This document shows positions 1,392-42,976 of a stretch of DNA of 64,000 nucleotides, in pieces. Both the position numbers and the translations under genes were made by a program. The DNA comes from a virus, in the IMG/VR virus record IMGVR_UViG_3300045825_000261, positions 1-64,000 of that record, one strand, 5' to 3'. Positions within the stretch are counted from its first letter, which is position 1; the number at the start of each line of letters is the position of its first letter. A model generated the notes under the pieces. The model saw only the letters and a list, made by a program, of their open reading frames with translations. It made no database searches and was not told where the DNA came from.

Positions 1392-1724
1392 CTACCAAGC
1401 GTCTCCAGCGACACTTGCTGGCTGGTGTGGCGCTATCGGTGTGGCGACCATCTTTGGCGTAGCTCGCTCAACCGGCACAACTTTCAGTAGCGACATTCCA
1501 ACGCGCTGTCTGCGACCTGACACAGGCGAAATCTCTTCGACATTACACGTCTTGGAATTCACCTTCTTTATTCTCACCGTGTAGCCAATTCCGTCATAAT
1601 CAAAAGTCGCTGTTCTGCCAACTGCCGGCCTTGTGTCGAGTCGCGCAGCCAGTAATGTTTCAATGTGCGCCTTCATTTTGTTCAGCGTTTCAGTTCCAAG
1701 TGAATTCAGTTTTGATAAATCCAT
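1392..1724 (-). CDS. hypothetical protein (SH3-like beta fold possible), C-terminus GDAW
   Basis: ORF with GAGGA RBS. Confidence 0.7.
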   Translation of the reverse strand: MDLSKLNSLGTETLNKMKAHIETLLAARLDTRPAVGRTATFDYDGIGYTVRIKKVNSKTCNVEEISPVSGRRQRVGMSLLKVVPVERATPKMVATPIAPHQPASVAGDAW

Positions 1725-1848
1725 TTTCTCATCCTCTCAAGTGACTTGTTTCAAAAATTGACGCTCTCCAAGTCTTCTCTCGCGACTGCGCTTGAGTCTT
1801 GTCCGAAAGAACGTCTATTTTTGAAGAGGCGTAAGCCTCTTCGTTGCG

Positions 1849-2643
1849 CTATGACAAGCTCAATTCTGCCGTCATCTTCATCAAGATCAGCGAGTCGGGA
1901 TTTGGCACCATCTTGCCCTTTTCCTTCATTGTTACCTTCAGTGCCGGTAACAGCATCATCATTTGGTTCGCTTGTGACGCCGATGTGCCGGTGCTGTACT
2001 TAGTCAACAGGTCGGTTTGCAAATTCCCCTTCATGCCGCTAGTGATTTCGCCATCGCGAATCAATACAGCGAAGGTGCGTTGCAAAACTTCATTCAACTT
2101 GCCACCATTCGCCATGTAGCTGAACAGCATCGTTGCCTTTTGACCAACCTTGTCAGCCAGTTCGTCAATTGTCACGCAGAACGCATCCTGTGACGCTTTC
2201 AGGTCGTCGCCGCTCAGACCAGCATCAGCAACTTCCAGCAGCAAGAACTCGTCAGCCTTTGCACCAAGACGACTCAGCAGCACTTTGGATTCGTGACCGC
2301 GTTGGCGGCGAACACGTTCAGCTTTTGGCTCTTTAGGTTCTTTCGGTTCTTTTGCAACCTTTTCCTTCTTAGCTTTTTTCGCTTTCTTGGGCGCAGCGAC
2401 ATCTTCAGTCTTAGGCTTGTCGCCTTCAGTTATCTCTTCGTGGTTAGCTTCATCATCGGCGTACATCGCTTCAACAGCTTCCGCTTTCTCGATTTCAGCG
2501 GCAACCGCTTCAATTGCGGTCACTTCGCCCTCTTCGCCAGACGCTTCGATGATTTCATCATCAAACATTGAAGCCAAGATCGCTGCTTCGTCATCAGCAG
2601 AGAGGTTTGCAGAAACAGCGGAAGTCATATTAAATTGTGTCAT
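1849..2643 (-). CDS. hypothetical early protein with acidic N-terminus and K/E/P-rich linker
   Basis: strong AAGGAG RBS; two tandem promoters upstream. Confidence 0.8.
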   Translation of the reverse strand: MTQFNMTSAVSANLSADDEAAILASMFDDEIIEASGEEGEVTAIEAVAAEIEKAEAVEAMYADDEANHEEITEGDKPKTEDVAAPKKAKKAKKEKVAKEPKEPKEPKAERVRRQRGHESKVLLSRLGAKADEFLLLEVADAGLSGDDLKASQDAFCVTIDELADKVGQKATMLFSYMANGGKLNEVLQRTFAVLIRDGEITSGMKGNLQTDLLTKYSTGTSASQANQMMMLLPALKVTMKEKGKMVPNPDSLILMKMTAELSLS

Positions 2644-2849
2644 TTTGAATCTCCTTAGTATGTGTAATTGTCGTTTTGTTGTATCGCTTCGTTTTGCGAT
2701 GATTGAATTATGAGTGTTTAATCAAGGACTAAGAAGCAATCTACTTGGCAAACTTCTTATTTCCTTGCTGCTCTTTCTTCTCTCGTTGCGTTGTTGTGAT
2801 GGTTGAATTCTAAAGAGTGGTCTTAGGACTTAAAACCACTCTTCGAGGA

Positions 2850-3176
2850 TTAAATACATTCCGCCAAGTTACTCAGTGGCTCACCGTCATATTTGCCGTA
2901 CAGTTCAAATTGACTGAAACCACTCCAAGACAGGTCTTGCATAAACTTAACAAGGCGCTGTTTGTTGATTGAATTAAAATCTGACGACTCCGCGATCAGG
3001 TAGGGTTTACGAAAGCTTGGCGCTACCTCTTCGGTAGCATAAAAGTCACCGTCGCCAAAATGCTTCATTACGCGACCTTGTTGATTGGGTACGGCAGCTT
3101 CGAGCCTGTAACCGATGATCCGGTCAGAAGTCTTAGTGCGCACAGTCTTTACATGGATAACCGCAATGCTGGTCAT
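2850..3176 (-). CDS. hypothetical protein
   Basis: start MTSIAV with GAAAGG RBS; promoter at 3213-3234. Confidence 0.7.
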   Translation of the reverse strand: MTSIAVIHVKTVRTKTSDRIIGYRLEAAVPNQQGRVMKHFGDGDFYATEEVAPSFRKPYLIAESSDFNSINKQRLVKFMQDLSWSGFSQFELYGKYDGEPLSNLAECI

Positions 3177-3548
3177 TTTGTTACCTTTCATCATGTTGTT
3201 TTCAAGGTGTTCATTCTCGCAACAAGACACAGGACAAAAACTGGCAAATGGTATTGCTCCTATATAGGTTCACCCATTGCAATTTGCTATATAAGAACGT
3301 GCGCGTGAGTAAACCACAAACGCAGGAGAAAGAAGCTTGCAGATATGGCGAAAAGTTGTTCGCCAACAATGTGAGGCGCAAGCCTTATGCGAGCGCTGTC
3401 ATTCGCTGAAAAGAGCCACAGAGAAAATCAGAATTTGAAACTGACGCAAAATCGCCACGCGAAAAGAAAACACACACCAGACTCGCCAAGGCGGTGAGTG
3501 CAGCGTGTGTTATTCGTAGAATAATAGTATCGCCGCGAGTAACCGTTT

Positions 3549-4010
3549 TCACCATGCCCCTACGCCGTCGTCCACAACCCCTTTGATTGACGCGCAGTCA
3601 CTTGCCGGAGCATCAGGTGATGGCGGCGGTGGTGGAGGCGGCGGCGGTGCGTAGAGATTATCCTCTTCGATAAGCTCGTCATTCTCATCGCGATGCGAGT
3701 TTGTCCAGCGCTCGATAAATTGTTCGTATGCGTTTATGGCAGTCTCTTCATTCGGAAACCATAAGTCAGATTGAACAGGGTCCTTTACCCACTTCCCGGA
3801 CGAATTCAGGTTGAAGATGTCGAGCCGGATCACCTTGCGCATTTCTGGAAATACGTCCATGTTTGCAACCGTGCCAACCCAATCGACAACCACACGAACT
3901 TCGCTATTATCATACCGGCGAACGGTTGAGTAGCTCTCACTGGCAATTAGCGCTTCCCACTCTTTAGCGGTAATCTTCGCTCCGCTTCTGTTGATGTAAC
4001 CCGCGCTCAC
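3549..4010 (-). CDS. hypothetical protein with polyproline linker, C-terminus GVGAW
   Basis: GGAGG RBS; nine-proline tract. Confidence 0.75.
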   Translation of the reverse strand: MSAGYINRSGAKITAKEWEALIASESYSTVRRYDNSEVRVVVDWVGTVANMDVFPEMRKVIRLDIFNLNSSGKWVKDPVQSDLWFPNEETAINAYEQFIERWTNSHRDENDELIEEDNLYAPPPPPPPPPSPDAPASDCASIKGVVDDGVGAW

Positions 4011-4177: not shown

Positions 4178-4178
4178 T

Positions 4179-4655: not shown

Positions 4656-5315
4656 TTACCAACTCCGCACTCTGAATTGACTAATGCGTGCCTGATATGC
4701 GTTGAAGTCCATCAGTGGGTCGGTAATCACCAACTCGCCATTCTTTCGTTGCATGAAATTTCCCAAGTGCATGTCCAACTGAATACCGCCGTCATCACAC
4801 GTCGCGCAGAAGTTTTCAAGTTGGCGAAGTGCATTCTTTACGCTGCGCGGCAGGTTCTTTGCGCACTTAACAATATCCTCAATCTGCTCTGCTGCACTCA
4901 TTGGCTTTGAGCGGCAACGATACCGTGCCGTTGTCAGCTTGCCTTTACTTGATCGGTGTTGCTGCGCAATCGCACTGGCAAGCTTTCTAGTATCGCTGCC
5001 GATTTCAAGCTTCTGAAGGCGTTCGATTTCAAAAGCGTAAATTGGGAACATTTGACCATTTAGGCTAATTTCGCCAATGTCTTGGTAATTCTCAACCAGA
5101 CGAGGAAAGTGCCGGTGATCAACCGCGCTGACGTTGCAGTTTAACATCCAGTAGTTAAAGCTGTCAGTAGTGACTTTAATTACGGTATTGGCTCTGCCAC
5201 CTTCATACACTGCCGAAAACGCACCTCGCGCTATACATTTTTTACCAACCAGCGCCTCATGCCGTAAAGCTTGCTTTACACGCCAATCATTGAGTTGTAG
5301 AACTTTAAGTGCCAT
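4656..5315 (-). CDS. Ser/Thr protein kinase, T7 gp0.7-like kinase domain
   Basis: ARGAFSAVY Gly-loop, VIK, DMHLGNFM catalytic loop, ITDP. Confidence 0.75.
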   Translation of the reverse strand: MALKVLQLNDWRVKQALRHEALVGKKCIARGAFSAVYEGGRANTVIKVTTDSFNYWMLNCNVSAVDHRHFPRLVENYQDIGEISLNGQMFPIYAFEIERLQKLEIGSDTRKLASAIAQQHRSSKGKLTTARYRCRSKPMSAAEQIEDIVKCAKNLPRSVKNALRQLENFCATCDDGGIQLDMHLGNFMQRKNGELVITDPLMDFNAYQARISQFRVRSW

Positions 5316-5567: not shown

Positions 5568-5569
5568 TT

Positions 5570-8435: not shown

Positions 8436-9224
8436 TCAAAAGCTTCCCCAACCTTCAGATCGCTCTACAGCGCTGCCATTTCTACAACTTAATGACAAGT
8501 TATCATGAACATTAGAGGCACCGACCGTATTCGTGACCATAGCGGTAGGATTAAAGTAACCAACGAAGCTTGGATAATAGTCGTCGCGATAATTGGTCCC
8601 AATCTCAAGAACAGTTCTGCCGGTAATAATATCCACAAACGAAACGGTCTTTCTATCTTCATGGTCGAGGGACGTATCTCTTGCGACAACTCGACATTCC
8701 GGAAACGTGTTTTTGATCGAATTGTCCGGAATAACCTTCACTACATTGAGCGTAGACCTGTATCCGTCACTTGGGTCTTCGATTGCCGAAAACGTCACGC
8801 CATCAAGTTTGAAATTGACCGCCTGACAGTCTTCGTATTCGTCACCCCAAGCCTTACTTGTCGAAAGAGACACTGTATCAACGCCACTAAGACGAAACTC
8901 TTTGTCAATGAAGGTTTCCGCAAGATCAACATTGTCGCCCAGGCTTAAATTGCGGAAGTTGCCAATCGGTCTTTCGGCACTCCGAACAATATCGACACCC
9001 CAGTGACTCAACATGAATTGGTTAAGTTCTGGATTGTCCACGTCGATCATGAAAGTTTTTTGAGGCTCGGTCATTGATTTTTTATCAACTGCCGTGACTT
9101 TCATGGTGACTAGACTCATGGTTTTTGCGCCAATATTCGTGCCGTAGATTGACTCGAAGCCATACTCATTCAATACAACGATGTCGCCAACTTTTGGGAC
9201 AGGATGCGATTTGACCGTCATCAT
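8436..9224 (-). CDS. two-domain hypothetical protein, C-terminus GWGSF
   Basis: GGAGG RBS; TAATG coupling. Confidence 0.75.
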   Translation of the reverse strand: MMTVKSHPVPKVGDIVVLNEYGFESIYGTNIGAKTMSLVTMKVTAVDKKSMTEPQKTFMIDVDNPELNQFMLSHWGVDIVRSAERPIGNFRNLSLGDNVDLAETFIDKEFRLSGVDTVSLSTSKAWGDEYEDCQAVNFKLDGVTFSAIEDPSDGYRSTLNVVKVIPDNSIKNTFPECRVVARDTSLDHEDRKTVSFVDIITGRTVLEIGTNYRDDYYPSFVGYFNPTAMVTNTVGASNVHDNLSLSCRNGSAVERSEGWGSF

Positions 9225-10082: not shown

Positions 10083-10649
10083 TTACTTCTTCAGCTTGGC
10101 GATCAGAACATTCAGTTCATCAGCCTTCACCGCCGGCACATCGAGCTTTTCTTCAAACTCAGGCAGGTATTCGGTCACTTCAGGCCACGTCGCAACCAGA
10201 GCTTTAACAGTCGTCACGCCATTCAGCAGACCGTTGATCTTTTCGCGCAGCGCCTTCTTGTCGTCGTAAATGCTGATAAATTCAGCATCCCTTGCGCGAA
10301 TCTCTTTCCACATACCGTGAGTGGACGGAAGTTCGATGCGACCGTAGTTACCGATGTCGGCTGGAACACGCAAACCTTCCGTTGTTGTAATTTCGCCATA
10401 CTCGGCACGAAAGCCTGAGACTTTTGATTGGTAGCGAATCTCATGAGTGGTACTGAAAAAGTGTGGCGGCAACTGCTTCATCAGCGCCAAATGCTTCGGC
10501 TCAACATGCCAGTGCAGTAGTTTGGTGGCGAGCTCATTGTTCAATTTCGCAAGTGCTGCGAGGCGATCCTTGAATAGTGCCGTGACGACATTCTCGCAAA
10601 TCTCTTCGCGAAGGCGAGTTGTCAGACGTTGTGTTGTTTGTTTGCTCAT
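10083..10649 (-). CDS. Nmad5-like (nucleotide-modification-associated domain 5) protein
   Basis: RLTTRLREEI N-terminus and VTTVKALVATWPEVTEYLP C-terminal motif; AGGAG RBS. Confidence 0.6.
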   Translation of the reverse strand: MSKQTTQRLTTRLREEICENVVTALFKDRLAALAKLNNELATKLLHWHVEPKHLALMKQLPPHFFSTTHEIRYQSKVSGFRAEYGEITTTEGLRVPADIGNYGRIELPSTHGMWKEIRARDAEFISIYDDKKALREKINGLLNGVTTVKALVATWPEVTEYLPEFEEKLDVPAVKADELNVLIAKLKK

Positions 10650-10756
10650 TACTTTTCTCCTTGTTGTAAAACTCTGCGCAACATTGCGCGATGTGTTAAT
10701 GATACGGTACATAGTCAGGAATTGAAAGTCAGTTGTGACTTATTCCGGTGAGACTT

Positions 10757-11383: not shown

Positions 11384-11737
11384 CTAAGCCACCTTGTCAG
11401 CACGTTCTTGAGCCGCCTTGTCGGAGTAGCCGCCCTTATAGCGAACACCGAGCTTGGCGATATTTGCGTCAAGAGTTTCTTTACGAGTAATGTCGAAGCC
11501 TTGACGCAGACCTTCCATATAAAACTCAAGATCGCCGAGCTCCTCGATCACGTTTTCGCGATCAAGTGGCTTGTTGTAGATGACGTGCTTTTTGACAGCA
11601 TCCAGCAGTTCACCAGATTCGCCAGAGATACCGACAGCCATGTGAAGCGCGTGAGCCTTTTCTGGCGTCAGCGATGCAATGATTGCATCGCCAGGTTTTA
11701 CCAGTGCCGTTACCATTTCGCTGTGAATAATTGTCAT
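11384..11737 (-). CDS. MazG-like NTP pyrophosphohydrolase
   Basis: GESGELLD...EELGDLEFY. Confidence 0.85.
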   Translation of the reverse strand: MTIIHSEMVTALVKPGDAIIASLTPEKAHALHMAVGISGESGELLDAVKKHVIYNKPLDRENVIEELGDLEFYMEGLRQGFDITRKETLDANIAKLGVRYKGGYSDKAAQERADKVA

Positions 11738-16033: not shown

Positions 16034-16321
16034 TCACCAGTGATCCTTAAATTTCTTATCGCTTGGCGAAATAATGCTCTCAACCAGTTGAGGCGATTTG
16101 ATATTCTTGACCGCTCTCAACTCAACGTCTTCATTGTTCGCCAGCGCGTTTCTCAAACCCTCGTCAATCGAAACGCCAGACTCCGACATCAAAACTTCAA
16201 GCGTGATCAACAGTCTGCGAGAATCTCTTGAAAAATTAACAATCATGCCGTCAAGGGGGTTTGTTTGACTAACAATTTTTTTCTCTACCTTGAAATCTAA
16301 AATTCTTGCCAACATTACCAA
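16034..16321 (-). CDS. hypothetical protein, C-terminus KDHW
   Basis: ORF coupled to the upstream gene. Confidence 0.6.
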   Translation of the reverse strand: MVMLARILDFKVEKKIVSQTNPLDGMIVNFSRDSRRLLITLEVLMSESGVSIDEGLRNALANNEDVELRAVKNIKSPQLVESIISPSDKKFKDHW

Positions 16322-16644
16322 GCCTCCTCTATAGATTTTGGACGATCATTACTGATAACAGCCGTCTTGACCGCATCACTATTTATTGAGGCGTTTGCGA
16401 AACTCCCAATCACTTTATCGAACATTCCTGACATCATGAGAGTGCCGGTAGAGTAGTTGGGCGTACTGATTGTTCCGGCTGTAATTGAAGATGCTGATAG
16501 GCTCGCTCCGCAGAGCGTAGTAACGGCCGTTGCACGTGCAGAGGCGACGGCGGTATACGCGGCGTCAGCGGCACTCGGAAGTGGCATCAACAGAGAAGGA
16601 CGGTGGTCCATATTATAAATTTCACTCACTTGTGGTTTATTCAA
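16315..16644 (-). CDS. low-complexity hypothetical protein, C-terminus EEAW
   Basis: ORF in operon. Confidence 0.55.
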   Translation of the reverse strand: MNKPQVSEIYNMDHRPSLLMPLPSAADAAYTAVASARATAVTTLCGASLSASSITAGTISTPNYSTGTLMMSGMFDKVIGSFANASINSDAVKTAVISNDRPKSIEEAW

Positions 16645-17766: not shown

Positions 17767-18432
17767 CTAAAAGCTTCCAAAGCCCAAGTCAGCATAACGC
17801 TCAAACTTCTCAGCGTTAGCCTTCAACTCTGCATCCTTTGCAGCTTCCGCCTTTGCCTCGCGCAATTCATGCGTCAAGCCCCTAGCTACGGCGTTCTTTA
17901 TATATTCTTTAAAGCCGGTAAACACCACATCGGCTTGCGCCTCACCCATTTCCATTTCCGCATAGCTGGTAACGTGGTCAGCCCTGAACACAAAGATCAA
18001 ACTGCCCTTCTTACCAGCATAAGCGGATACCGGAATGAAGTTCTCACCGCCGATATGCGGGTGCTTCGAGTACGTTCCGTCCTTTTTCTTTACCGTTAAG
18101 GACATTGGTTCGCCCAACATAAACGACGTAGGCTCTGCAACCTTGAGCATTTCCGTCAGTTGTGCCGCGAGAACGGTTAAACTCCCGCCGCCATCAGTTT
18201 CATCAAGCGACCATTCCAATGTCTTATCACTCATATCGTCCTCTTTCATTGTTATTTCAGCGAATTCATCAACCCATATCGCCTTTATTTCCTTACCTCT
18301 TATTGATGACATATGCTCGGACGTTATCTTACTAAGCGGCACTGGCGCTGCCGCACCCCATGTTTCAGGATGCGATGAATGAAATCCAGGCGTATTGAAA
18401 AGCGCATCGAGCATTGACCTTCCACCAGCCAT
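17767..18432 (-). CDS. hypothetical protein (internal start at 18234 plausible), C-terminus GFGSF
   Basis: TGATG coupling; internal AGAGGA RBS before MSDKTL. Confidence 0.7.
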   Translation of the reverse strand: MAGGRSMLDALFNTPGFHSSHPETWGAAAPVPLSKITSEHMSSIRGKEIKAIWVDEFAEITMKEDDMSDKTLEWSLDETDGGGSLTVLAAQLTEMLKVAEPTSFMLGEPMSLTVKKKDGTYSKHPHIGGENFIPVSAYAGKKGSLIFVFRADHVTSYAEMEMGEAQADVVFTGFKEYIKNAVARGLTHELREAKAEAAKDAELKANAEKFERYADLGFGSF

Positions 18433-25088: not shown

Positions 25089-25940
25089 TTAGCCTTCAGT
25101 GCCGGTGCTGTCTTCAAACTCGCCAAGCAGATCATCAAGCTCGTCATCAAGAGCCGGTGATGCTTTTGCGGCCTTGATGTTGCGCTCAGATGCTCGCAAG
25201 CCTTCTTCCCGCTGATCATCAAGCGAACTCGCAGATGTTTTTGGACGATCTTCAGCAGATGCCGGTAACAAGCCTGCAACATTGTTGATGGCGTTCAGAG
25301 CACGTTTCTGGTTTTCCTCGTTCTCTTGCAGAACGTATTCGTCCAGATTGTTCAACTTGCCCATTACGTCATCAGGCATAGTCGAACGCTTGGCGCTGAT
25401 CTGAACCGTGTACTTGGTGGTCAAACCTTTGCCATCGCGGTTGATTGTGATGATCTGAGGTTTTTCCTCGTCAAACACGCCAGACGCCCACTCTTCAACG
25501 ATTTCAACAATCTGACCGAAGACAGATTTGCCAACTTCGAGAATTTGAGGGGTTTTTGCTTCTGTCGTATCCAGAGCCAGTACGTTCAACAAATACTTCT
25601 GCTTACGCGCACCGCAAGCCGCTTCATCCAACTGCTTCAAAGTTTCCTCGTCACCAGCATCGGTCATACGAACGGCCTTGCCGATACCTTCGCAAACGGG
25701 ACATGGGCGACCGTAAGTTGCGTCCATGCAAGGGTAGACCGCCTGAATGACACCAGCAGAGTCCTTGATGAAGTGTTGCCCAAACTCGTGAAAGTAGACG
25801 TGCTCTTCGCCTTTGCGCCAGCCTTGCAGCAGAACGTAGCGATTAGCGCCTGGATTTGGTTTGAGAGTTTTTGCCTTTTGTTTCAAGGCGGCCTTTTTCT
25901 GTTTCATAAGACCCATGAGTTTGCTTGTATCCATTGCCAT
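25089..25940 (-). CDS. gp32-like single-stranded DNA-binding protein
   Basis: H..C..CPVC zinc motif, YLLNV, acidic tail; replication context. Confidence 0.7.
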   Translation of the reverse strand: MAMDTSKLMGLMKQKKAALKQKAKTLKPNPGANRYVLLQGWRKGEEHVYFHEFGQHFIKDSAGVIQAVYPCMDATYGRPCPVCEGIGKAVRMTDAGDEETLKQLDEAACGARKQKYLLNVLALDTTEAKTPQILEVGKSVFGQIVEIVEEWASGVFDEEKPQIITINRDGKGLTTKYTVQISAKRSTMPDDVMGKLNNLDEYVLQENEENQKRALNAINNVAGLLPASAEDRPKTSASSLDDQREEGLRASERNIKAAKASPALDDELDDLLGEFEDSTGTEG

Positions 25941-26092: not shown

Positions 26093-26875
26093 TTACGCGG
26101 CTTCCCGTTTTGCCGACGACAGTGCGCGACTACGAAAATCGTCACGTTCACTTTGTTTTTCGAGAACGCGAGCGGCGCCCTTGTATTCATCACGCCGATC
26201 TGCACCCAACTGAATAATCATGTCGCGGCGATCCTTCAGGGCTTCGACGTTTTGCTTATTTATCGAGGCGATCGTGCCGGCTTCAATGACGGTATTCTTT
26301 GCCTTGAACCAGCGAGAGTCGAGCTTGACGGCGTTTTCAACCATCTTCTCAGTAACTTTCTCGCCTGAAGCCACCAACTCCTTACGGTGGTGGTCGTACA
26401 GCGTTGCCTCTACAACCTCGAAGCGAGCCTTCAAGCGATCGTGCTGCGCCTCTGCACGGGCGGCTAATGTGCCGTAATAGGCACGCAGACCGCTTTGTTC
26501 GTACATACACGAATCCAGAGTTTCTTCAGTGACGCGAATGTCCTTGATGAACTTGGAAGAATCGACGTAATGTTGAAGACCGCTTGACGCTGTTTTTGGA
26601 ACATCTTCATCAAGCTCGTCCGAAGCAGCAGTCTCTTCAACAACTTCCGCAACAGACTCTTTCACCTTAACCGGCGCTTCTTCGTCCACTAACTGCTCAG
26701 AAACACTCTCAACAGGCACTTCTTCGACCTTAACAGGCTCTTCGACCTCGACTACGGTCGCAGCAGGCGCTTTCGCAACAGCCTGGCTTTCGACAATCTT
26801 CGCGCTCTCCTCTTCGAGCTCCGCCATCAGCGATTCGATTTCGTCATCCGATACGTCAATTTCTTTTACTGCCAT
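26093..26875 (-). CDS. acidic coiled-coil protein, possible UvsY-like recombination mediator
   Basis: C-terminal KVTEKMVENAV helical region; sits between dnaE and SSB. Confidence 0.5.
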   Translation of the reverse strand: MAVKEIDVSDDEIESLMAELEEESAKIVESQAVAKAPAATVVEVEEPVKVEEVPVESVSEQLVDEEAPVKVKESVAEVVEETAASDELDEDVPKTASSGLQHYVDSSKFIKDIRVTEETLDSCMYEQSGLRAYYGTLAARAEAQHDRLKARFEVVEATLYDHHRKELVASGEKVTEKMVENAVKLDSRWFKAKNTVIEAGTIASINKQNVEALKDRRDMIIQLGADRRDEYKGAARVLEKQSERDDFRSRALSSAKREAA

Positions 26876-30442: not shown

Positions 30443-31081
30443 TTACGACCTCAATTCAGGAGCAGCAACGATACGACCAGCGATTTCCTGCGCTATGCAA
30501 AAATCAAGCAGAATCGGTAAAGTGATAGATACATGAGAAGCTGCGGCGCTGTCGCCCATTTCGGTTTTGGTTAAAAATAACTCTTTCAATTCGCGTTTAT
30601 CAAAGCCTCCGTCAATCAGACCGTCAATCGCTACAGACATAAAACGTGGCCGTGAATTCGCTAGAGCGTTGCGCCCCTCCTGAATACCTTCTTTTATCTT
30701 TTCAATCAGACCTTGATTACACAGATTGCGAGCCTGCTCTCGCGGCTTAATCTTCATCTTCGCAAGAATCAATTCATGCTCGACCGGAATCGAAAACTTC
30801 ACAACCTCAACGCCAGTCACGCGCTCTACCGGCTGAGTAATCTTCGCCTCAACTTTTGAGGCGAGCTCCTCAGCCGTCATACGACGAGCCATTTTTCGCT
30901 TTGCGTCGTCATGCCGCTTCAGCAAGTCAGTCACATTAACAAGCCCTCTTATTGACTCAAGCGTCTTCAGAGACTCGTCAGAGCACGCCTCAAAATGAGA
31001 GCATGTCTTGCAAATGTCAGAATCGTGCGAAAACACACTTGCTGCGCCATAACATCCCGGAACACCTTTGGCTTCACTCAC
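30443..31081 (-). CDS. hypothetical protein with N-terminal Cys cluster
   Basis: GCYG...CKTC..C. Confidence 0.7.
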   Translation of the reverse strand: MSEAKGVPGCYGAASVFSHDSDICKTCSHFEACSDESLKTLESIRGLVNVTDLLKRHDDAKRKMARRMTAEELASKVEAKITQPVERVTGVEVVKFSIPVEHELILAKMKIKPREQARNLCNQGLIEKIKEGIQEGRNALANSRPRFMSVAIDGLIDGGFDKRELKELFLTKTEMGDSAAASHVSITLPILLDFCIAQEIAGRIVAAPELRS

Positions 31082-31737: not shown

Positions 31738-31741
31738 GAGA

Positions 31742-32929
31742 TTAACCAAATATTCTCTGAGCGAGGCCATCAATTACTTCGCGATCCACGCGAGATAGCT
31801 TATTGATAAACGATAGCGTCAGACCTTGACGGAACGAGCCACGCTTAACACCGATCTTGGCCGCGTAAATCAAGGTGCGTGGCGAAATAACGTCACTGAC
31901 CTTTGCGCCGTCATACGCATCACGAACAAGCCCTGCGAACTCAACCATCTTGTCAGCGTCCTCTTTAACCAGACCAACGTGATTTTGAAGAATTTGCGAC
32001 TCAGCCTTCTTGTTCATGTACTGCTTGTTCACAACCATGCCGAAGCGGTCGTAGTTGGCGCTGTTACCGATAACCGTACCTTGATACAGACCAGTTTCGT
32101 CACCGGAGCCATTTGTGTTACCTGTAGCAACGAAGCGAAAGTTCGGGTGAGGCTTGATAATGCGCATCGTTACAGGTGCTTCCTTGATGACCAGCGGCTT
32201 ACCTTCGAGCACGGCTTGATAGACCGAACTTACAGAAGGCAGCATGAAGTCATATTCATCAGCGCAGTACGTCCAGCCGTTGATCATCGCAAGAGGCAAT
32301 TGACCGTATTCAAATACAGTGTGACCATCTTTCACCGTCCACTGACCGACAATGTGGCTCTCTTCAGTGTTCACGGTATGCTGAACGCGAACGTATGGGC
32401 GACCAGTGCGTGCCGCTACCTGCTCATGCAGTTCTGATTTACCAGCGCCCTTGTGACCCCAGACGTAGCAAGGAATATTCAGTTCTTGCGCCAAGATCAC
32501 GTTTTTCAATTCGTCAATATCGAAGACGTAATTGTCAGATATGTCCGGTACAAAATCCTGACACGAGCTATTGACCAGAACGCCGATGGGTATCGCTTCG
32601 CCTTTTGCAGACATTGCAGACTTAACCTTGCCAAGACCAAAAACTTCGTGAAATGCCTTTTTAATGATCGAGTCTTTGGGCGCGACAGTTGCGGAGGTCG
32701 CCATTTCAAATTTCAAACCAGAGGCTTCAGCCGGTGCTGCCGCTGCGGCACGCTTTTCTGCACGCTTTTCTGCAAGCTTTGTCTGAGCAAATTCAGACAT
32801 GAGCGGAGCTTCTGGGAATTTAGCCACGTACTGCTCGGTGGTCATTTCGGGGTGATCCTTCTTCAAGTGCAGTTGAACTGAGTGAATTTGAGCTCCGCAA
32901 ATTGCGCAAGTGATTTTGTCTGTTGACAT
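31742..32929 (-). CDS. CobS/MoxR-like AAA+ ATPase with N-terminal zinc finger
   Basis: CAIC..HLKKDH, GHKGAGKS, ADEYD, ATGNT, DRF. Confidence 0.9.
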   Translation of the reverse strand: MSTDKITCAICGAQIHSVQLHLKKDHPEMTTEQYVAKFPEAPLMSEFAQTKLAEKRAEKRAAAAAPAEASGLKFEMATSATVAPKDSIIKKAFHEVFGLGKVKSAMSAKGEAIPIGVLVNSSCQDFVPDISDNYVFDIDELKNVILAQELNIPCYVWGHKGAGKSELHEQVAARTGRPYVRVQHTVNTEESHIVGQWTVKDGHTVFEYGQLPLAMINGWTYCADEYDFMLPSVSSVYQAVLEGKPLVIKEAPVTMRIIKPHPNFRFVATGNTNGSGDETGLYQGTVIGNSANYDRFGMVVNKQYMNKKAESQILQNHVGLVKEDADKMVEFAGLVRDAYDGAKVSDVISPRTLIYAAKIGVKRGSFRQGLTLSFINKLSRVDREVIDGLAQRIFG

Positions 32930-33041
32930 ATAAGTCTCCTAAAATTTGATTCAGTGCAGCAACATTGCTGCGACAGAAGAATAATAATCATTTCTGTCAG
33001 GATAGACAAGTCACTTGTGACTTATCCTGACGGTTATCCAA

Positions 33042-34988
33042 TTAAGCTACCAGCAAGTGACGCAATTCCTTGATAACCTGATTTGGCAACTCGGTCACGT
33101 CATTTATAACCAAGTTCTTTGGGTAGAACTTGCGAACTGACTCATCCATGATGCCAATACCGACAACCTTCACTCCTGACTTAGTTACCTCGGCAACAAC
33201 CTTAGTCAAGTGCGTCCGCATTGCGCAACTATCGCCGTAAGCACTTGGTGAGCCGTCCGACAGTACGATCATCACCTTGCCTGTTTCGCGCCTTACCTTG
33301 AGACGATGAGCGGCGACCTCGACACATTCGCCGTCCACGTTGTTTCGTAAAATGCTTGAGTTAGGCAACCAACCAAAGCGGTCACGAACTGGTGCGGTTA
33401 GGCGCTCATCGAAAGACTTCAGTATCGGCATATACAATGGCTCGCTTCGCGAAAAATTGCGCCCAAGCTTTTTAACCTCCGCCTCAATAGCGTATCTGTC
33501 TTCAGAGCTACCGCCGGTCGTGAAGCAGATCACCTCATGCTTGATGCCAATACGTTCGAGAACCTGCGACAGCGCATAGGCCGCCTGTGTCGCCAGATGA
33601 ATTTTCGCACCAGCCATCGAACCAGACGCATCAATAACCAAAGACACCGCCACGTCCTTGCTGTTCGCTTCGTGCTTTTTGCGAAACACACGATCGTCGC
33701 CACAAGCTAAACGAGAAAGGTTAGCGGCGTGCATACGGCCGGAACGACGACCGTTTTCCCACTGAGACAAAGAACGGGCAGCTATGGCGCGTTCAAGGTC
33801 TTTTTGCAGTGGCCCAACCATGTGATCAACCTTATCTGCCAAGCTAACAAACATTTCAGGGCGGTAGTCTCTACCAACCTTCAGAGGCTCAACAACATCG
33901 TCGTCCTTTGTAAAAACAAGGTAATCAGACTCTTTAGCCATACCAAGAGCGGAGTCAGAGATTACGACCGACATTGCCTCGTCAAAGCCGTTTGCAGAAT
34001 CTTTATCAACCGCAGCCATGATTGCCGACGTGTCGCCAAGCTCAACTTCTTTATCGGAAGAGTCGCTTTCAGTCTCGTCTTCGGCGTCACCTTCAGAACC
34101 GCCTTCTTCAGAATCATCTTCGCCTTCTTCAGAATCATCTTCGCCACTCTCTGACTTTTCTGATTTTTCACCTTCATCAGACTCGCCTTCGTCTTTACTT
34201 TCCTCGTCAGACTCGCCTTCCTTTTCTTCAGATTTGGCTTTAGACTCTGGTGCTTTACCTTTACTCTTGGTCGATTTTTTAGACTTCGATTCGCCTTCAC
34301 CTTCGTCACCAGCGCCATCTTCATTCTTGTCTTCCGACTTTTTATCACTCTTATCGCCACTGCGAAGGCGCTTTTCAATTTCTTGCGCAAGCGCAAAACA
34401 CTCTTCGGTAGACGAGGCGCGTTCTATTTGCGATTCCAAATCTTTGATTTTTTCATAAATCGGCTTTACGCTTTCCATCTTGTCACGCATGAACTCTTTG
34501 AAGAGCCACTGACCAGACATTGCGCGAAGCAGCGGAACAAGCAGTACGCCGACTAGCTTATTCATATCGCCCTCTTCCATCGCCTCTTTCATTTTCGGTA
34601 CGGTGAACTTGTCCAAAAAGAACTTACCAGTGACAGACAGGTTACTTGCGCATCCGGCGAACTTCTTACCCATGCACTTTTCAACACGAGGGTCTTCAAG
34701 AGCATTCAGCATTTTTCCACAACCTGCCTTGTTTGCCTTTTGCATGACTGAAAAATCGCTAAACATAATGTGAGCAACTTCGTGATCCAAGAAGCCTTGA
34801 ATCGCATAACACAATTCGTCAGTTGCGTTATCTGGTAAATATGGAAGGTTGACCAGAATTGGTCGACCCATATGATCACCTCTAACGTAAGCGGTAACTC
34901 CTCGCTGAGTTACCTTAATGCCCTTGCCGGACAGCATTTGTGTGATTTTCACTACCGCATCGCGGAGGACTAATACTCTATCGCTCAT
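33042..34988 (-). CDS. CobT-like protein: HExxH domain, acidic linker, vWA domain
   Basis: HEVAH, DASGS MIDAS motif, VLSDG. Confidence 0.9.
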   Translation of the reverse strand: MSDRVLVLRDAVVKITQMLSGKGIKVTQRGVTAYVRGDHMGRPILVNLPYLPDNATDELCYAIQGFLDHEVAHIMFSDFSVMQKANKAGCGKMLNALEDPRVEKCMGKKFAGCASNLSVTGKFFLDKFTVPKMKEAMEEGDMNKLVGVLLVPLLRAMSGQWLFKEFMRDKMESVKPIYEKIKDLESQIERASSTEECFALAQEIEKRLRSGDKSDKKSEDKNEDGAGDEGEGESKSKKSTKSKGKAPESKAKSEEKEGESDEESKDEGESDEGEKSEKSESGEDDSEEGEDDSEEGGSEGDAEDETESDSSDKEVELGDTSAIMAAVDKDSANGFDEAMSVVISDSALGMAKESDYLVFTKDDDVVEPLKVGRDYRPEMFVSLADKVDHMVGPLQKDLERAIAARSLSQWENGRRSGRMHAANLSRLACGDDRVFRKKHEANSKDVAVSLVIDASGSMAGAKIHLATQAAYALSQVLERIGIKHEVICFTTGGSSEDRYAIEAEVKKLGRNFSRSEPLYMPILKSFDERLTAPVRDRFGWLPNSSILRNNVDGECVEVAAHRLKVRRETGKVMIVLSDGSPSAYGDSCAMRTHLTKVVAEVTKSGVKVVGIGIMDESVRKFYPKNLVINDVTELPNQVIKELRHLLVA

Positions 34989-36180: not shown

Positions 36181-36471
36181 ATGAAAACATTTGACGTTGC
36201 CGCATGTGCGGACTTCCTTAAAATTCACCGAACCACAGTCCTAAAGCTTGTGGCGTCTGGCGACCTTCCAGGCGCAAAGATAGGCCGCGCCTGGGTCTTT
36301 CTTGAAACAGACTTAATCGACTATATACGCAACGCCATTCGCTCACAGAGTCACGTCACAACTAAGCCACAAGTGACTGAAGCTATGCGAGCAGAGCCAA
36401 TAGGTCGTAAGCGAAAGGTTGCGCCAGACCTCTCTGCATACACGTCACCACATCTTTCGCGCCAAATCTGA
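36181..36471 (+). CDS. xis: excisionase (HTH_17/MerR-like)
   Basis: FDVAACADFLKIHRTTV..GDLPGAKIGRAW; adjacent to the integrase. Confidence 0.85.
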   Translation: MKTFDVAACADFLKIHRTTVLKLVASGDLPGAKIGRAWVFLETDLIDYIRNAIRSQSHVTTKPQVTEAMRAEPIGRKRKVAPDLSAYTSPHLSRQI

Positions 36472-37620
36472 CGCCCTAAGATTTGCATAGCGACCCAACA
36501 TTTGAGTGCTGCTGTGTCCGGTGATCTTCATAATCTCAAAGTCCGACATTTCCGTTCTCTCGAAAAGTCTACTGGTCGCCTCGTGGCGCATGTCGTGAAA
36601 GTTTAAATCAACACAGCCGGCCGCCTCAAAGATTCTGGTGAACTGGTGCGACAGTGCCGATGTAACTTTCTCATATCGCTCCTTTGGCAAAAGCATAGCG
36701 ATCTTCTTCTCAGCGAGCCATGGGAATAGATACCCACCGTCAAACGTAAACAACTCCATTCCTCTTCGCTTTGCAAGAACGTGCTCCGTATAGGTAATCA
36801 GGCTCGCGATGGCAACAGACGACAGCGGCACCTGTCTGCTTTTGCCATTTTTGGTTTTTTTAAGAAAGATTGTCGCATTCTCAATGTCCACCATGTCCAT
36901 TTCAATTGAATAGATTTCACTGAGCCGCATTGCTGATTCAACAGCAAGATCAAACACGCACTCGATAGCCGCTTGGTAATCAAGCTTAAACGCCCTTTCT
37001 CGGCCCTCTGGCTTAACCTTGTTCATCACCGCCCTAATTCGCTCTTCCTCACCAGACTCAAGGCGTCTGATGCGCCCTGCGCTGTGCTTAACCTCCAACG
37101 TGTCATCTTTAGCAATGACGGCCGCATCTGCTGGCGTATAGGCGGAATACCCCTTCGGCAACAGTCTGAGAGGGTTTGGAGCAAGCTCCGCAACACCCTG
37201 CGTTATTGCCCAGTCAAAACACCGAGCAAGCGCACCGACATTATGTCTGATTGTGGATGGGGACAAATTAGCCACGCGCTTCATCGAGCTTATCCATGAC
37301 TCGATCCACTTGTAGTTGACGAGTCTTATACTTACACCGCCAACCTTATTAAGCAAACCACTCAGGTAATCAGTATCGCAGGACGTGACGTGACGCTCGC
37401 GCATATATTCACGAATAAGATCGCCAATTGAAGAATACTTCTTCACATCGTCAAGAAGCTCTGGTGGCACGATACCGGCATCGAGCAACGACTCGACATG
37501 TTTGCCGTAAGCGATCGCAGCCTCTTCCGTATCGAATGTCCAATACCACGGCTTTTCTCTTACTGCTTTTCTTTTCACGGTCAACTCAAAGCGACCGCCT
37601 CTTGGCTTAATTGACGCCAT
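36445..37620 (-). CDS. int: tyrosine integrase
   Basis: SAMRLSE, KTKNG, HDMRH, TGH, RYA catalytic set. Confidence 0.95.
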   Translation of the reverse strand: MASIKPRGGRFELTVKRKAVREKPWYWTFDTEEAAIAYGKHVESLLDAGIVPPELLDDVKKYSSIGDLIREYMRERHVTSCDTDYLSGLLNKVGGVSIRLVNYKWIESWISSMKRVANLSPSTIRHNVGALARCFDWAITQGVAELAPNPLRLLPKGYSAYTPADAAVIAKDDTLEVKHSAGRIRRLESGEEERIRAVMNKVKPEGRERAFKLDYQAAIECVFDLAVESAMRLSEIYSIEMDMVDIENATIFLKKTKNGKSRQVPLSSVAIASLITYTEHVLAKRRGMELFTFDGGYLFPWLAEKKIAMLLPKERYEKVTSALSHQFTRIFEAAGCVDLNFHDMRHEATSRLFERTEMSDFEIMKITGHSSTQMLGRYANLRASDLARKMW

Positions 37621-39146: not shown

Positions 39147-39167
39147 TGTCGCGTTAATTAAAAACCA

Positions 39168-39878: not shown

Positions 39879-39954
39879 CGTATTACTCCTTAAATTAAGT
39901 TTGGTAAGTCACGAGTGACTTTATCACAGAAAGAAAAAATGTTCAAGACTTCAC

Positions 39955-40146: not shown

Positions 40147-40148
40147 AA

Positions 40149-41525: not shown

Positions 41526-41527
41526 AA

Positions 41528-41845
41528 TTAAGCCTCTTCACTTTTAAAAGTGCCATCAATAATCGTTTCAGCCTGATCAAGAAACGATTCAACAAAGACG
41601 TTAAGAAGTTTTTGAGCAACCTTTGCCGTCTGCTCATCACTGAGGTCATGAGCAATCTTGGAGCGATTGAGAAGATGAGCGTTCAAGTGAACGGCAAGGT
41701 CGGTGATAACGGCGCTCGATACCGCAAGGTCAGCATCATCAATTGACGAAAGCGCGTGTACTACGGCATTCCTACAGTCATCAAAGTGCTTGTCAAATTC
41801 GGCACGTTTTTCGGCAAGTTGCTCTTCGGTAATTTTTGCATTCAT
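41528..41845 (-). CDS. hypothetical protein
   Basis: AGGAG RBS. Confidence 0.7.
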   Translation of the reverse strand: MNAKITEEQLAEKRAEFDKHFDDCRNAVVHALSSIDDADLAVSSAVITDLAVHLNAHLLNRSKIAHDLSDEQTAKVAQKLLNVFVESFLDQAETIIDGTFKSEEA

Positions 41846-41865
41846 GTTTTTTTCTCCTAAGTAAA

Positions 41866-42504
41866 TTAAGCTGCTGCGGTTGCGGCAAGTCTTGCTCTTG
41901 CCATTTCAATCAAACTCATACCGCTCTTTTGAGGTGATAAGACTGTCATTTTCTCAATCGACATTGTTGACTTTGGTTTTGGTTCTTCGGGTTTGATGAG
42001 AACCTTTTTAAGCTCCGCTGGCGCAGTCTCTTTCATTGCAATATTTATTGCGTCTGCGTAGTCGCCACCAATATTAAGTGCGGAATCTTGCGTTTCGACT
42101 TCAACTTTTGGCACAGTTCTCGCAACCGGCATGTTGAATGAAGACTTTTTATTACTAAGCGAAGCAATCTTTTCATGCAATTCCAATTGTCTCGTCTCGT
42201 ACTTGGCGTTAATTCTTGCTCTGCTGACGTAATAGAGTGCGTGGCCGGCCGCGACTTCCTCCCGACGCATTCTCGCCGCCTTGCAGGTGTTGTGATTGAT
42301 TGCATCGCCGCAAGATGAATTCATTTCAGAAATCTCGCCACGCTTACTTTCACTGAGCCGCTTCATACAAACGCAATACGCGGCGGTGCGACCAACAATC
42401 GTACAGTCGTCAAAGTAAAACGCATTCGTTCCAGACTCACTCTTGTCGAGTGAGTACGGATTGCCGCTTTCATCTGTTCTGTAAATCTCTTCCATTTCAG
42501 CCAT
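41866..42504 (-). CDS. hypothetical Cys-containing protein
   Basis: GAGGA RBS. Confidence 0.7.
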   Translation of the reverse strand: MAEMEEIYRTDESGNPYSLDKSESGTNAFYFDDCTIVGRTAAYCVCMKRLSESKRGEISEMNSSCGDAINHNTCKAARMRREEVAAGHALYYVSRARINAKYETRQLELHEKIASLSNKKSSFNMPVARTVPKVEVETQDSALNIGGDYADAINIAMKETAPAELKKVLIKPEEPKPKSTMSIEKMTVLSPQKSGMSLIEMARARLAATAAA

Positions 42505-42517
42505 TTATTCCTCCTAT

Positions 42518-42976
42518 TTACCAGCTTGCCCAATCACCGCCCCGCTCCAGTTCTGGAGCGGGCTCTTCACAAACAATGCCATCATCAACGCTGTCGCTAT
42601 CAACAATAAGCTCAACCCCCAAAGCAATACAAATTCGATTGGCGACAAGCCGCCCATAATGTTCAAAACAAACAGATTCAAGCGTAACAGACGGAACCTC
42701 GTGACCCTCGTTAAATAATCCGTAGCTAGAAAAAGTCTCGTTGTATCCTCGACCCTCTTTTTCATTCAGTATATTTAACCGAGCTAGTCCGAGATTTCGC
42801 TCGTCTGTAAACATTTCCAACTTCACCTGACAACTGTGACTGTGACACTTGTCTAATTTCCCCCACCTCTTAATCAGAACACCTCGCCCCGCACTCTGAT
42901 TCCAAAGCTGAATCGCCTCATAGAACTTAGTGCCCCACTCGTGAATCTGAATGTGACCACCCTTATGGATGTTCAT
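42518..42976 (-). CDS. WGR-like domain protein, C-terminus DWASW
   Basis: TKFYE...KRWGK...EKEGRGY. Confidence 0.6.
   Translation of the reverse strand: MNIHKGGHIQIHEWGTKFYEAIQLWNQSAGRGVLIKRWGKLDKCHSHSCQVKLEMFTDERNLGLARLNILNEKEGRGYNETFSSYGLFNEGHEVPSVTLESVCFEHYGRLVANRICIALGVELIVDSDSVDDGIVCEEPAPELERGGDWASW

What the first reader, a model, noticed from the sequence alone, without database searches (positions are those of the whole stretch)
1392..42976. Shared aromatic C-terminal tag on unrelated small proteins
Seen: non-homologous ORFs end in SVAGDAW (1392), DDGVGAW (3549), RVRSW (4656), ERSEGWGSF (8436), KFKDHW (16034), SIEEAW (16315), RYADLGFGSF (17767) and ERGGDWASW (42518). The consensus is roughly (R)..[WFV]-[GA]-[SA]-[WF]-COOH, usually after a flexible Pro-rich or low-complexity linker. 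Trp is a rare residue, so this many terminal W/GSF endings among roughly 80 genes looks enriched. Established: C-terminal docking tails exist (SSB DDDIPF, HbYX, ssrA degron). Inference: a phage-encoded addressing system routes tagged cargo to one hub, such as the CobS/CobT AAA+-vWA pair, the capsid interior, the replisome or a protease. I know of no description of such a system.
Basis: partly seen in the sequence, partly recalled or inferred. Interest (0 to 1): 0.8.

Follow-up and report, generated by a model that had tools for sequence, protein, structure and literature searches.

The report
Shared aromatic docking tail, phage proteins
Seven otherwise unrelated non-structural proteins of this uncultured SSU5-like phage end in a short conserved peptide finishing in tryptophan or phenylalanine, which relatives keep even where the rest of the protein has diverged beyond recognition, so it most likely acts as an address label read by a partner that is still unknown.

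Summary
All eight quoted endings are at the stated coordinates. 7 of 101 minus-strand ORFs of the 85-kb record end in Trp, against 1.2 expected.

Seven endings belong to conserved tails; RVRSW (4656) and a ninth, RKMW (integrase), look like chance.

There are two tail classes:
- Type B is [W/Y/F]-G/A-x-[W/F]-COOH, on 8436, 17767 and 42518.
- The W-ended acidic class is D-x-P-x-T..[D/E]-x-W or DDxVGAW, on 1392, 3549, 16034 and 16315.

Type B occurs in all 11 related genomes examined, including SSU5, RHEph10, nickie, BUCTxx99 and JGB6. It ends 42 of 1476 coding-like ORFs against 10 of 5176 shadow ORFs.

It marks the gene after primase (a WGR protein) and the gene after SbcC. In the post-SbcC family (547 clusters), 134 of the top 150 representatives end exactly in this tail, after a poorly conserved linker.

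The tail-less bodies share no detectable similarity.

My reading is a C-terminal docking motif read by one or a few partners. I could not identify the partner:
- CobS/CobT remains a candidate, but Vibrio phage ICP2 has CobS/CobT and no such tails.
- No clamp, Ku or Gam family was found.

I found no published description. This scan has reported the same tail class before on other DNA of this phage group.

The parts
17767..18432 (-). Gene directly after SbcC, with its start overlapping the SbcC stop. 221 aa, type B tail ...RYADLGFGSF. It belongs to a large uncharacterised phage family with a small beta domain, a long helix and then the tail.
   Evidence: Family search: 547 clusters at E <= 1e-3, and 134 of the top 150 end in [WYF][GA].[WF]. 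Conservation island at Y213, F218, G219, S220 and W/F221 (2.8-4.2 bits) after a linker of about 1 bit per column. AF2 mean pLDDT 80.3. No Pfam family in 126 members scanned. No fold match.
42518..42976 (-). Gene directly after primase. 152 aa WGR-like protein with a Pro-rich linker and type B tail ...ERGGDWASW.
   Evidence: The WGR hit is weak in the window protein (17.8 bits against a cut-off of 22). It is above cut-off in the homologues of G002 and G004 and in the positional orthologues of RHEph10 and RHph_X66. The tail is kept in 3 of 3 family members, in P0002 and P0003, and in the gene after primase in 8 of 10 genomes.
8436..9224 (-). 262-aa protein of unknown function with type B tail ...ERSEGWGSF.
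   Evidence: No Pfam hit. One weak PHROG hit. One of 2 family members is tailed.
3549..4010 (-). 153-aa protein with a poly-Pro linker (nine consecutive prolines) and tail ...VVDDGVGAW.
   Evidence: 4 of 4 orthologues end DD.[VI]G[AV]W. P0168 and P0169 end DDGVGAW.
1392..1724 (-). 110-aa protein (phrog_10017) with a Pro-rich linker and tail ...PHQPASVAGDAW.
   Evidence: 4 of 4 orthologues keep H-x-P-x(5-6)-[GD]-[DE]-x-W. PHROG match.
16315..16644 (-). 109-aa protein with tail ...NDRPKSIEEAW. It is the first of a pair of small overlapping genes downstream of RuvC.
   Evidence: Syntenic pairs in G001 (...RDVPQTTEEAW and ...SLGDHW) and G002 (...DIPKTVDKDAW and ...DKPKTRTDQW) show no BLAST similarity in the bodies. 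The tail codons GAGGAGGCTTGG also carry a Shine-Dalgarno-like GAGGAGG in front of the next gene's ATG.
16034..16321 (-). About 93-95-aa protein with tail ...SDKKFKDHW. It is the second gene of the pair.
   Evidence: The likely true start is the ATG two codons inside the listed TTG start.
4656..5315 (-). Kinase-like protein ending RVRSW. Judged not part of the system.
   Evidence: Matches phrog_3809 and a protein-kinase PHROG. The homologue in G001 ends ...NSMIMRI.
36445..37620 (-). Tyrosine integrase ending ...RKMW. Judged a chance W ending.
   Evidence: Pfam Phage_integrase, E = 1.1e-23. No tailed relative among the 11 genomes.
31742..34988 (-). CobS (AAA+ MoxR class, 31742..32929) and CobT (vWA, 33042..34988). 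A candidate reader only; not shown.
   Evidence: Pfam hits. The MIDAS motif D-x-S-G-S is present in 9 of 9 CobT orthologues detected. Counter-evidence: ICP2.

Best explanation
The endings are a C-terminal short linear docking motif. A few residues at the very end of a flexible or helical linker are kept by selection on many unrelated non-structural proteins of this phage group, because one partner, or a few, grips them.

The group-wide form is aromatic-Gly/Ala-x-aromatic-COOH, often preceded by Tyr-x3-4 and Pro or acidic residues. The window's own subclade adds a second, Trp-ended acidic form: D-x-P-x-T..[D/E]-x-W and DDxVGAW.

The two carriers conserved across the group are the WGR protein next to primase and ligase, and the accessory protein coupled to SbcCD. 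Both point to DNA ends, nicks and recombination-dependent replication.

Shown here:
- the tails exist;
- they are enriched;
- they are conserved at the protein level;
- their carriers are unrelated.

Inferred:
- that they dock on a partner;
- that one partner reads them all;
- which partner it is.
For: 1. Enrichment.
- In the record, 7 of 101 ORFs end in W against 1.2 expected.
- Type B ends 30 ORFs in 11 genomes against about 1.2 expected from internal frequency.
- It ends 42 of 1476 coding-like ORFs against 10 of 5176 shadow ORFs (odds ratio 15, P = 3e-19). Two other gene-calling schemes give the same direction.

2. Conservation in orthologues: 4 of 4, 4 of 4 and 3 of 3, plus 4 further database homologues.

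3. Positional orthologues too diverged to cluster by BLAST still carry the tail. This holds for the gene after primase in 8 of 10 genomes. After SbcC the next gene ends exactly in the tail in 5 of 10 genomes, and near or displaced forms occur in 3 more.

4. In the post-SbcC family, 134 of 150 representatives, each under 50% identical to the others, end exactly in the tail. Nine more carry one extra residue. The tail is an island of 2.8-4.2 bits behind a linker of about 1 bit.

5. The carriers' bodies are unrelated and include a WGR domain and a distinct beta domain.

6. All 7 tagged genes lie among the 67 non-structural-side ORFs and none among the 34 late ORFs (P = 0.051).

7. The residue at position -2 and the codons vary while the aromatic and Gly positions hold, so selection acts on the protein.
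Against: - No partner was found and no binding was tested.
- Two tail classes may mean two readers.
- In nickie the motif is followed by one extra residue (FGGWA, WGAFG), and 9 of 150 family members do the same. A free carboxylate on the aromatic residue is therefore not strictly required.
- The regexes were defined after seeing the data.
- Some tagged small genes in arrays may be diverged paralogues, so the number of independent carriers is lower than the number of tagged genes.
- The structural versus non-structural split is only borderline significant.
Confidence: 0.7

Rival explanations
1. The tails are clients' handles for the phage CobS/CobT pair. The vWA domain of CobT would capture the C-terminal peptide, with its carboxylate or an acidic residue on the MIDAS metal, and the MoxR-class ATPase CobS would remodel or release the client. 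This is a specific version of the docking reading and is the first reader's first-named hub.
For: - CobS and CobT are detected in 9 of the 11 genomes each, and at least one of them in 10 of 11. G001 (51% complete) has neither, nickie lacks a detected CobS and JGB6 a detected CobT. The MIDAS motif D-x-S-G-S is kept in 9 of 9 CobT orthologues detected.
- Passages of PMC7159879 state that MIDAS sites bind an extended peptide, and that MoxR-vWA pairs in general capture a substrate peptide and then remodel the substrate.
- Earlier notes of this scan raise the same candidate.
Against: - Vibrio phage ICP2 encodes CobT and CobS, but 0 of its 85 ORFs end in a type B tail.
- CobS/CobT is only one of many core genes with the same phyletic pattern.
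- No binding evidence exists.
Confidence: 0.15
2. The tails are C-terminal degrons. A host or phage protease would recognise them and limit the lifetime of early and middle proteins.
For: - The tails are exposed aromatic C-termini after flexible linkers on non-structural proteins.
- About half of the post-SbcC family reads [L/I/M]-G-F-G-S-W. This resembles the G-I-G-F-G-A loop of E. coli ClpX, which docks on ClpP. The function of that loop is recalled, not from a call.
Against: - The tails do not resemble the known ssrA-type (..LAA) or other ClpX/Lon tags. Those tags are recalled, not tested.
- Conserved enzyme accessories (WGR, post-SbcC) keeping a degron across 547 clusters would be unusual.
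- The ClpX likeness holds for part of one family only.
Confidence: 0.08
3. The tails need no dedicated reader. They would be aromatic 'stickers' that partition proteins into a replication compartment or condensate, or that touch DNA or membrane directly.
For: - Several core proteins have long acidic disordered regions: 1849..2643 and 26093..26875.
- A search listing and abstract (PMC11321042) report that an invariant C-terminal Trp lets McdB associate with carboxysomes.
Against: The invariant Gly at -3 (129 of 134) and the fixed spacing of the two aromatics suggest a shaped pocket rather than generic stickiness.
Confidence: 0.05
4. The tails are a capsid-loading signal that takes the tagged proteins into the head for injection.
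For: C-terminal loading peptides are known for encapsulin cargo and for the HK97 protease. Both are recalled, not from a call.
Against: No head, scaffold, protease-like or portal ORF has the tail. All tagged genes lie in the replication and early region. The conserved carriers are DNA-repair accessories.
Confidence: 0.03
5. The endings arise by chance or from nucleotide-level constraint, such as start-stop overlaps or Shine-Dalgarno sequences inside the 3' ends.
For: Two of the nine W or F endings overlap the next gene's start or Shine-Dalgarno sequence: 3549 (GCATGGTGA) and 16315 (GAGGAGGCTTGGTAATG).
Against: - Shadow ORFs of the same DNA rarely carry the tails (10 of 5176).
- The other tagged genes are followed by gaps of 10 to 253 bases.
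- Conservation holds across 547 clusters.
Confidence: 0.02

Closest known systems
C-terminal tip of bacterial SSB (..D-D-D-I-P-F-COOH) and the acidic Phe-ended tails of phage T7 gp2.5 and gp4 (recalled, not from a call)
   Same: A few residues at the extreme C-terminus behind a flexible linker, a terminal aromatic residue, often acidic residues just before it, and a genome-maintenance context.
   Different: In SSB one carrier is read by many partners; here many carriers share one tail. The sequence differs (aromatic-Gly-x-aromatic). The phage's own gp32-like SSB (25089..25940) ends ...STGTEG without the tail.
Sliding-clamp-binding tails: T4/RB69 gp43, gp33 and gp55 on gp45; the bacterial beta-clamp motif QL[SD]LF (recalled)
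   Same: Many unrelated proteins carry a short terminal hydrophobic or aromatic motif read by one ring-shaped hub.
   Different: None of the tails listed fits QL[SD]LF. The usual clamp clients here (DnaE, FEN, ligase) lack the tail. No gp45-type or beta-type clamp family is found in the record. The one unknown core protein I folded is not a clamp.
Ku-binding motifs of end-joining factors
   Same: Several unrelated DNA-end-processing accessory proteins carry short terminal motifs read by one DNA-end hub. The conserved carriers here (WGR, SbcCD accessory) also concern DNA ends.
   Different: No Ku or Mu Gam family is present in the record at E <= 1. The record is 81% complete.
Substrate-peptide capture by vWA MIDAS sites in MoxR-vWA pairs (PMC7159879, passages read)
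   Same: The phage has a CobS/CobT MoxR-vWA pair with an intact MIDAS motif. An exposed terminal peptide with a carboxylate is a plausible ligand.
   Different: No evidence links the two, and ICP2 has the pair without the tails.
Invariant C-terminal Trp of McdB (PMC11321042; search listing and start of abstract only)
   Same: A terminal Trp on a disordered tail mediates association with a large assembly.
   Different: McdB is one protein family in carboxysome positioning, not a tail shared by unrelated proteins.

Membership tests
SSB-tip-type C-terminal docking tail | Motif at the extreme C-terminus behind a poorly conserved or flexible linker | tested here: met
   Pro 10% against 3.5% in the 30 residues before the tail; linker about 1 bit, tail 2.8-4.2 bits.
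SSB-tip-type C-terminal docking tail | Conserved terminal aromatic residue | tested here: met
   134 of 150 representatives end in W (100) or F (34) within the motif. Nine more carry one extra residue.
SSB-tip-type C-terminal docking tail | Carried by the single-strand-binding protein and read by many partners | tested here: not met
   The gp32-like SSB (Pfam gp32, E = 2.8e-16) ends ...EFEDSTGTEG. The tail sits on at least 7 other proteins.
Sliding-clamp-binding motif | Sequence fits QL[SD]LF / QLxLxL (consensus recalled) | tested here: not met
   By inspection, none of the tails listed fits.
Sliding-clamp-binding motif | Polymerase, flap nuclease and ligase carry it | tested here: not met
   DnaE ends ...VAEMLE, FEN ends ...SPFEGK and ligase ends ...NAIKGE.
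Sliding-clamp-binding motif | A clamp is available as hub | tested here: inconclusive
   No PF02916 or PF00712 match in the record, and 30443..31081 is helical rather than a clamp. The host beta clamp could still serve, and the other unknown core proteins were not folded.
MoxR-vWA client peptide | vWA partner with an intact MIDAS motif in the same genomes | tested here: met
   D-x-S-G-S in 9 of 9 CobT orthologues detected.
MoxR-vWA client peptide | Tails travel with CobS/CobT in unrelated phages | tested here: not met
   ICP2 has CobT and CobS and 0 of 85 ORFs with a type B tail. Only one such phage was tested.
MoxR-vWA client peptide | Physical binding of the tail to the vWA domain | not testable with these tools
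   No multimer prediction or experiment was available.
C-terminal degron (ssrA-like) | Non-polar ..LAA-type ending, and protease-dependent instability | not testable with these tools
   The sequence is unlike ..LAA (that motif is recalled). Stability cannot be tested here.
Capsid-loading peptide | Carriers are virion components or are encoded with head genes | tested here: not met
   0 of 34 late-side ORFs are tagged. Virion content itself is not testable here.

The most novel reading that the evidence does not exclude
The aromatic-Gly-x-aromatic-COOH tail would be the client handle of the phage CobS/CobT motor. The vWA MIDAS site of CobT would grip the terminal peptide of a changing set of DNA-repair accessories and small early proteins, and the MoxR-class ATPase would load, remodel or release them. 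That would give the long-unexplained 'cobalt chelatase' genes of phages and phage-plasmids a function as a tail-addressed protein-remodelling hub.
Probability: 0.15. Interest if true: 0.9.

Novelty: new variant of a known kind. Interest (0 to 1): 0.72.

Why it matters
- **Links unknown proteins.** Shared terminal docking peptides organise replisomes (SSB tip, clamp-binding motifs). A new one, conserved across a large group of phages and phage-plasmids that includes SSU5-like elements of Salmonella, Klebsiella and E. coli, would tie dozens of proteins of unknown function to one partner.
- **Gives an experimental handle.** A peptide of 8 to 12 residues could be used to fish out that partner.
- **Defines a new family.** The work also defines a large uncharacterised family, the SbcCD-coupled accessory protein, with 547 clusters at 50% identity and no Pfam model. 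Its most conserved feature is this tail.

Tried and rejected
**Hub search**
- I folded the unknown core protein next to DnaE (30443..31081; alignment of 16 sequences) to test for a hidden sliding clamp. It is a Cys4 plus helical, winged-helix-like protein, so that idea is rejected for this protein.
- ESM Atlas look-ups of 30443..31081 and 46275..47009 gave only unnamed phage clusters, plus a weak (0.78) gp59-loader-like lead.
- Profile searches of the PDB with two core unknowns gave nothing at E < 0.05 (A4) and no hit at E <= 1 (A5).
- Family searches of the record for Ku, Mu Gam, the T4 clamp and the beta clamp found nothing. The record is 81% complete.
- N-terminal extensions of 29 long members of the post-SbcC family matched no protein of the 11 genomes apart from the window's own, so there is no Rosetta-stone fusion. 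Ten long members had no Pfam domain.

**Fold of the 17767 protein**
- Foldseek found no match at E <= 0.001. The best VIA-align Z was 5.3, within noise. The fold is unassigned.

**Wider context of the post-SbcC family**
- tblastn of three members against 50,697 cultured-phage records gave no match.
- Pattern scans of viral contigs with two distant members found nothing.
- Scans with alignment A2 gave 7 viral loci and 8 metagenome loci, mostly records already held.
- The word-indexed protein search found only 2 further WGR homologues and 2 further homologues of 3549.

**Nucleotide-level explanation**
- Start-stop overlap or a Shine-Dalgarno sequence explains at most 2 of 9 endings.

**ClpX loop likeness**
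- This is noted but judged weak.

**Gene calling**
- My ORF sets are mechanical. Three schemes gave different totals. Some true tailed genes fell among the 'rejected' ORFs, for example four RHEph10 ..FGRF genes, so the control class is contaminated in the conservative direction.
- 42518 was not classed as coding-like by the strict 3'-window test, although its orthologues are conserved.

**Rows dropped**
- For alignment A3 I gave 125 of the 150 listed representatives plus the window protein. I left out 25, mostly with long N-terminal extensions or truncated matches.

**Literature**
- Five searches returned no paper describing such a tail in phages. I saw listings and the starts of abstracts only, except PMC7159879, where I read passages.

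Full report
**What the DNA is.** The window is bases 1-64000 of an 85,174-bp IMG/VR phage record (81% complete). Almost all genes lie on the minus strand.

The record encodes:
- DnaE with a C-terminal UDG-like domain, DnaB, primase, RecA, SbcC and SbcD;
- a RuvC-like resolvase and an HNH endonuclease;
- a gp32-like SSB, a flap nuclease, a DnaQ-like exonuclease, a sigma-like protein and PhoH;
- a class II ribonucleotide reductase, an ATP-dependent ligase, CobS and CobT;
- an integrase.

The primase is 41-50% identical to those of Rhizobium phage RHEph10, Pseudomonas phage nickie, Salmonella phage SSU5 and related phage-plasmids, and Stenotrophomonas phage BUCTxx99. It is 32.5% identical to that of Xanthomonas phage JGB6. 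No near-identical cultured phage exists.

**The observation.**
- In the whole record, 7 of 101 minus-strand ORFs end in Trp. Trp is 1.2% of residues, so 1.2 are expected (P = 2.3e-4).
- A regex for the two tail classes matches 7 ORF ends against 0.305 expected from its internal frequency. The regex is post hoc.
- All 7 lie among the 67 ORFs of the non-structural side and none among the 34 late ORFs (P = 0.051).
- With the last six residues removed, the nine W/F-ended proteins show no similarity to each other (best BLAST E = 1.2, no phmmer hit).
- The 30 residues before the tails are richer in Pro than in other proteins (10% against 3.5%).

**Relatives.** Anchoring on SbcC and primase found five IMG/VR relatives, which I fetched whole.
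- Terminal Trp is enriched in the four large ones: 11 of 181, 9 of 152, 8 of 113 and 5 of 100.
- Orthologues keep the tails. The family of 1392 is 4 of 4 (..H-x-P..G-[DE]-x-W). The family of 3549 is 4 of 4 (DD.[VI]G[AV]W). The family of 42518 is 3 of 3 (..DW[AG]SW).
- Four further database homologues also keep them.
- The pair 16315/16034 has syntenic counterparts in G001 and G002. Their bodies no longer match by BLAST, yet they end ..RDVPQTTEEAW and ..SLGDHW in G001, and ..DIPKTVDKDAW and ..DKPKTRTDQW in G002.
- RVRSW (4656) is not kept in its one homologue. The integrase ending has no tailed relative. I treat both as chance.

**The group-wide tail.** I added SSU5, RHEph10, RHph_X66, nickie, BUCTxx99 and JGB6. 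The form [W/Y/F]-[G/A]-x-[W/F]-COOH appears in all 11 genomes, each lineage with its own flavour:
- ..NP.FGRF in the Rhizobium phages;
- ..PENYGxW in BUCTxx99 and JGB6, including eight consecutive genes in BUCTxx99;
- ..WATW in SSU5;
- ..[WFY]GS[WF] in the window's subclade.

Counts are 30 ORF ends against about 1.2 expected from internal frequency. They are 42 of 1476 coding-like ORFs against 10 of 5176 shadow ORFs (P = 3e-19). Two other gene-calling schemes point the same way.

By contrast, terminal Trp as such is not enriched in SSU5 (4 of 153), RHEph10 (3 of 160) or RHph_X66 (0 of 176). In those genomes the tail ends in Phe or is rare.

**Conserved carriers.**
- *Gene after primase.* It carries the tail in 8 of 10 genomes, one of them (nickie) with an extra final Gly. 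BUCTxx99 and JGB6 do not have it there. This gene is a WGR-domain protein, above the Pfam cut-off in four relatives and at 17.8 bits in the window.
- *Gene after SbcC.* It ends exactly in the tail in 5 of 10 genomes. G001 has FGSF followed by seven residues, and nickie has two ORFs ending [FI]GGWA. In RHph_X66 the second gene downstream carries it. RHEph10 has a tailed ORF about 1.5 kb further on. BUCTxx99 has none.
- *Family-wide search.* A profile of the post-SbcC protein found 547 representatives at E <= 1e-3 in a library clustered at 50% identity.
  - Of the 150 listed, 134 end exactly in the tail and 9 more carry one extra residue. 144 have it within the last eight residues.
  - Gly at -3 is present in 129 of the 134, and the last residue is W in 100 and F in 34.
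  - Along an alignment of 126 members, the tail positions carry 2.8-4.2 bits behind about 35 linker columns of roughly 1 bit.
  - The family has no Pfam model (0 shared families among 126 members).
  - Its AF2 model (pLDDT 80.3) shows a six-stranded beta domain, a long helix and then the tail.
  - No solved fold matches convincingly.

**Reading.** Protein-level conservation of a four-to-ten-residue island, at the end of variable linkers on unrelated bodies, is the signature of a docking motif. The carriers conserved across the group deal with DNA ends and nicks. I therefore favour a reader within the replication and recombination machinery or the CobS/CobT pair, but this is inference.

- CobT keeps its MIDAS motif in 9 of 9 orthologues detected. 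Published passages say such sites capture extended peptides (PMC7159879). However, ICP2 has CobT and CobS without any such tail, and many other core genes share the same phyletic pattern.
- No clamp, Ku or Gam family is in the record.
- The unknown protein beside DnaE is not a clamp.
- The usual clamp clients lack the tail.
- Half of the post-SbcC family reads [L/I/M]-G-F-G-S-W, which recalls the G-I-G-F-G-A loop of E. coli ClpX. This does not extend to the other carriers.

**Novelty.** Five literature searches found no description. Earlier notes of this scan describe the same aromatic-Gly-x-aromatic tail, and the D-x-P-[KQ]-T..W tail, in other genomes of this phage group. Those notes were also left without a partner, so this window is a further member of a pattern the scan has already met. 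New here:
- the family-wide census of the SbcCD-coupled accessory protein;
- the WGR assignment of the primase-linked carrier;
- the negative test of CobS/CobT in ICP2;
- the negative clamp, Ku and Gam searches.

Noticed in passing
window 26957-30409 (-): The phage DnaE (Pol III alpha: PHP, NTPase, finger and HHH domains) carries a C-terminal uracil-DNA-glycosylase-superfamily domain at residues 1001-1099. This is an unusual polymerase-UDG fusion.
   Followed up: no
window 31742-32929 (-): CobS (AAA_5 plus CbbQ_C) has a weak N-terminal Ros/MucR zinc-finger-like match at residues 2-58 (E = 1.3e-4, below the Pfam cut-off).
   Followed up: no
window 30443-31081 (-): A core protein of unknown function (phrog_3616) lies between the sigma-like gene and DnaE. 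It has four nearly invariant Cys at the N-terminus. AF2 (pLDDT 79) predicts a helical body ending in a small hairpin, like a winged helix. It may be a transcription factor partnered with the sigma-like protein at 31078-31773.
   Followed up: partly
window 18432-20369 (-) and relatives: SbcC itself ends in ..RGF or ..HGHF in G000, G002, G004 and locus L073, and in ..STW in G001. It does not in SSU5, G005, nickie, the Rhizobium phages or BUCTxx99. This may be a degenerate tail on SbcC.
   Followed up: no
L026:7273-7716 (-) (G001): The post-SbcC orthologue of G001 reads ..VYADFGSF and then runs on for seven more residues (YVMEFA..). The cause could be a lost stop, a sequencing error or a tolerated extension.
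   Followed up: no
window 16315-16325 (-): The tail codons of 16315..16644 (GAG GAG GCT TGG TAA TG) double as a Shine-Dalgarno-like GAGGAGG and a stop/start overlap for the next gene. The next gene's real start is probably this ATG rather than the TTG listed.
   Followed up: partly
window 10083-10712 and 11734-12624 (-): An Nmad5 (nucleotide-modification-associated) domain protein lies near a ThyX-like protein. Together they hint at a modified base in the phage DNA.
   Followed up: no
window 1849-2643 and 26093-26875 (-): Two core proteins have long acidic, probably disordered N-terminal halves and conserved helical C-terminal halves. The first is flanked by tailed genes (families of 1392 and 3549) in G000, G001 and G002.
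   Followed up: partly
L052:7312-10074 (-) (Stenotrophomonas phage BUCTxx99): Eight consecutive small genes all end in ..YG.W. This is an array of tailed proteins just upstream of the structural module. JGB6 and G005 have shorter arrays at the same place.
   Followed up: partly
window 17211-17756 (-): An HNH endonuclease gene sits between the post-SbcC gene and RuvC in this phage. It is absent from that position in most relatives and is probably a mobile insertion.
   Followed up: no
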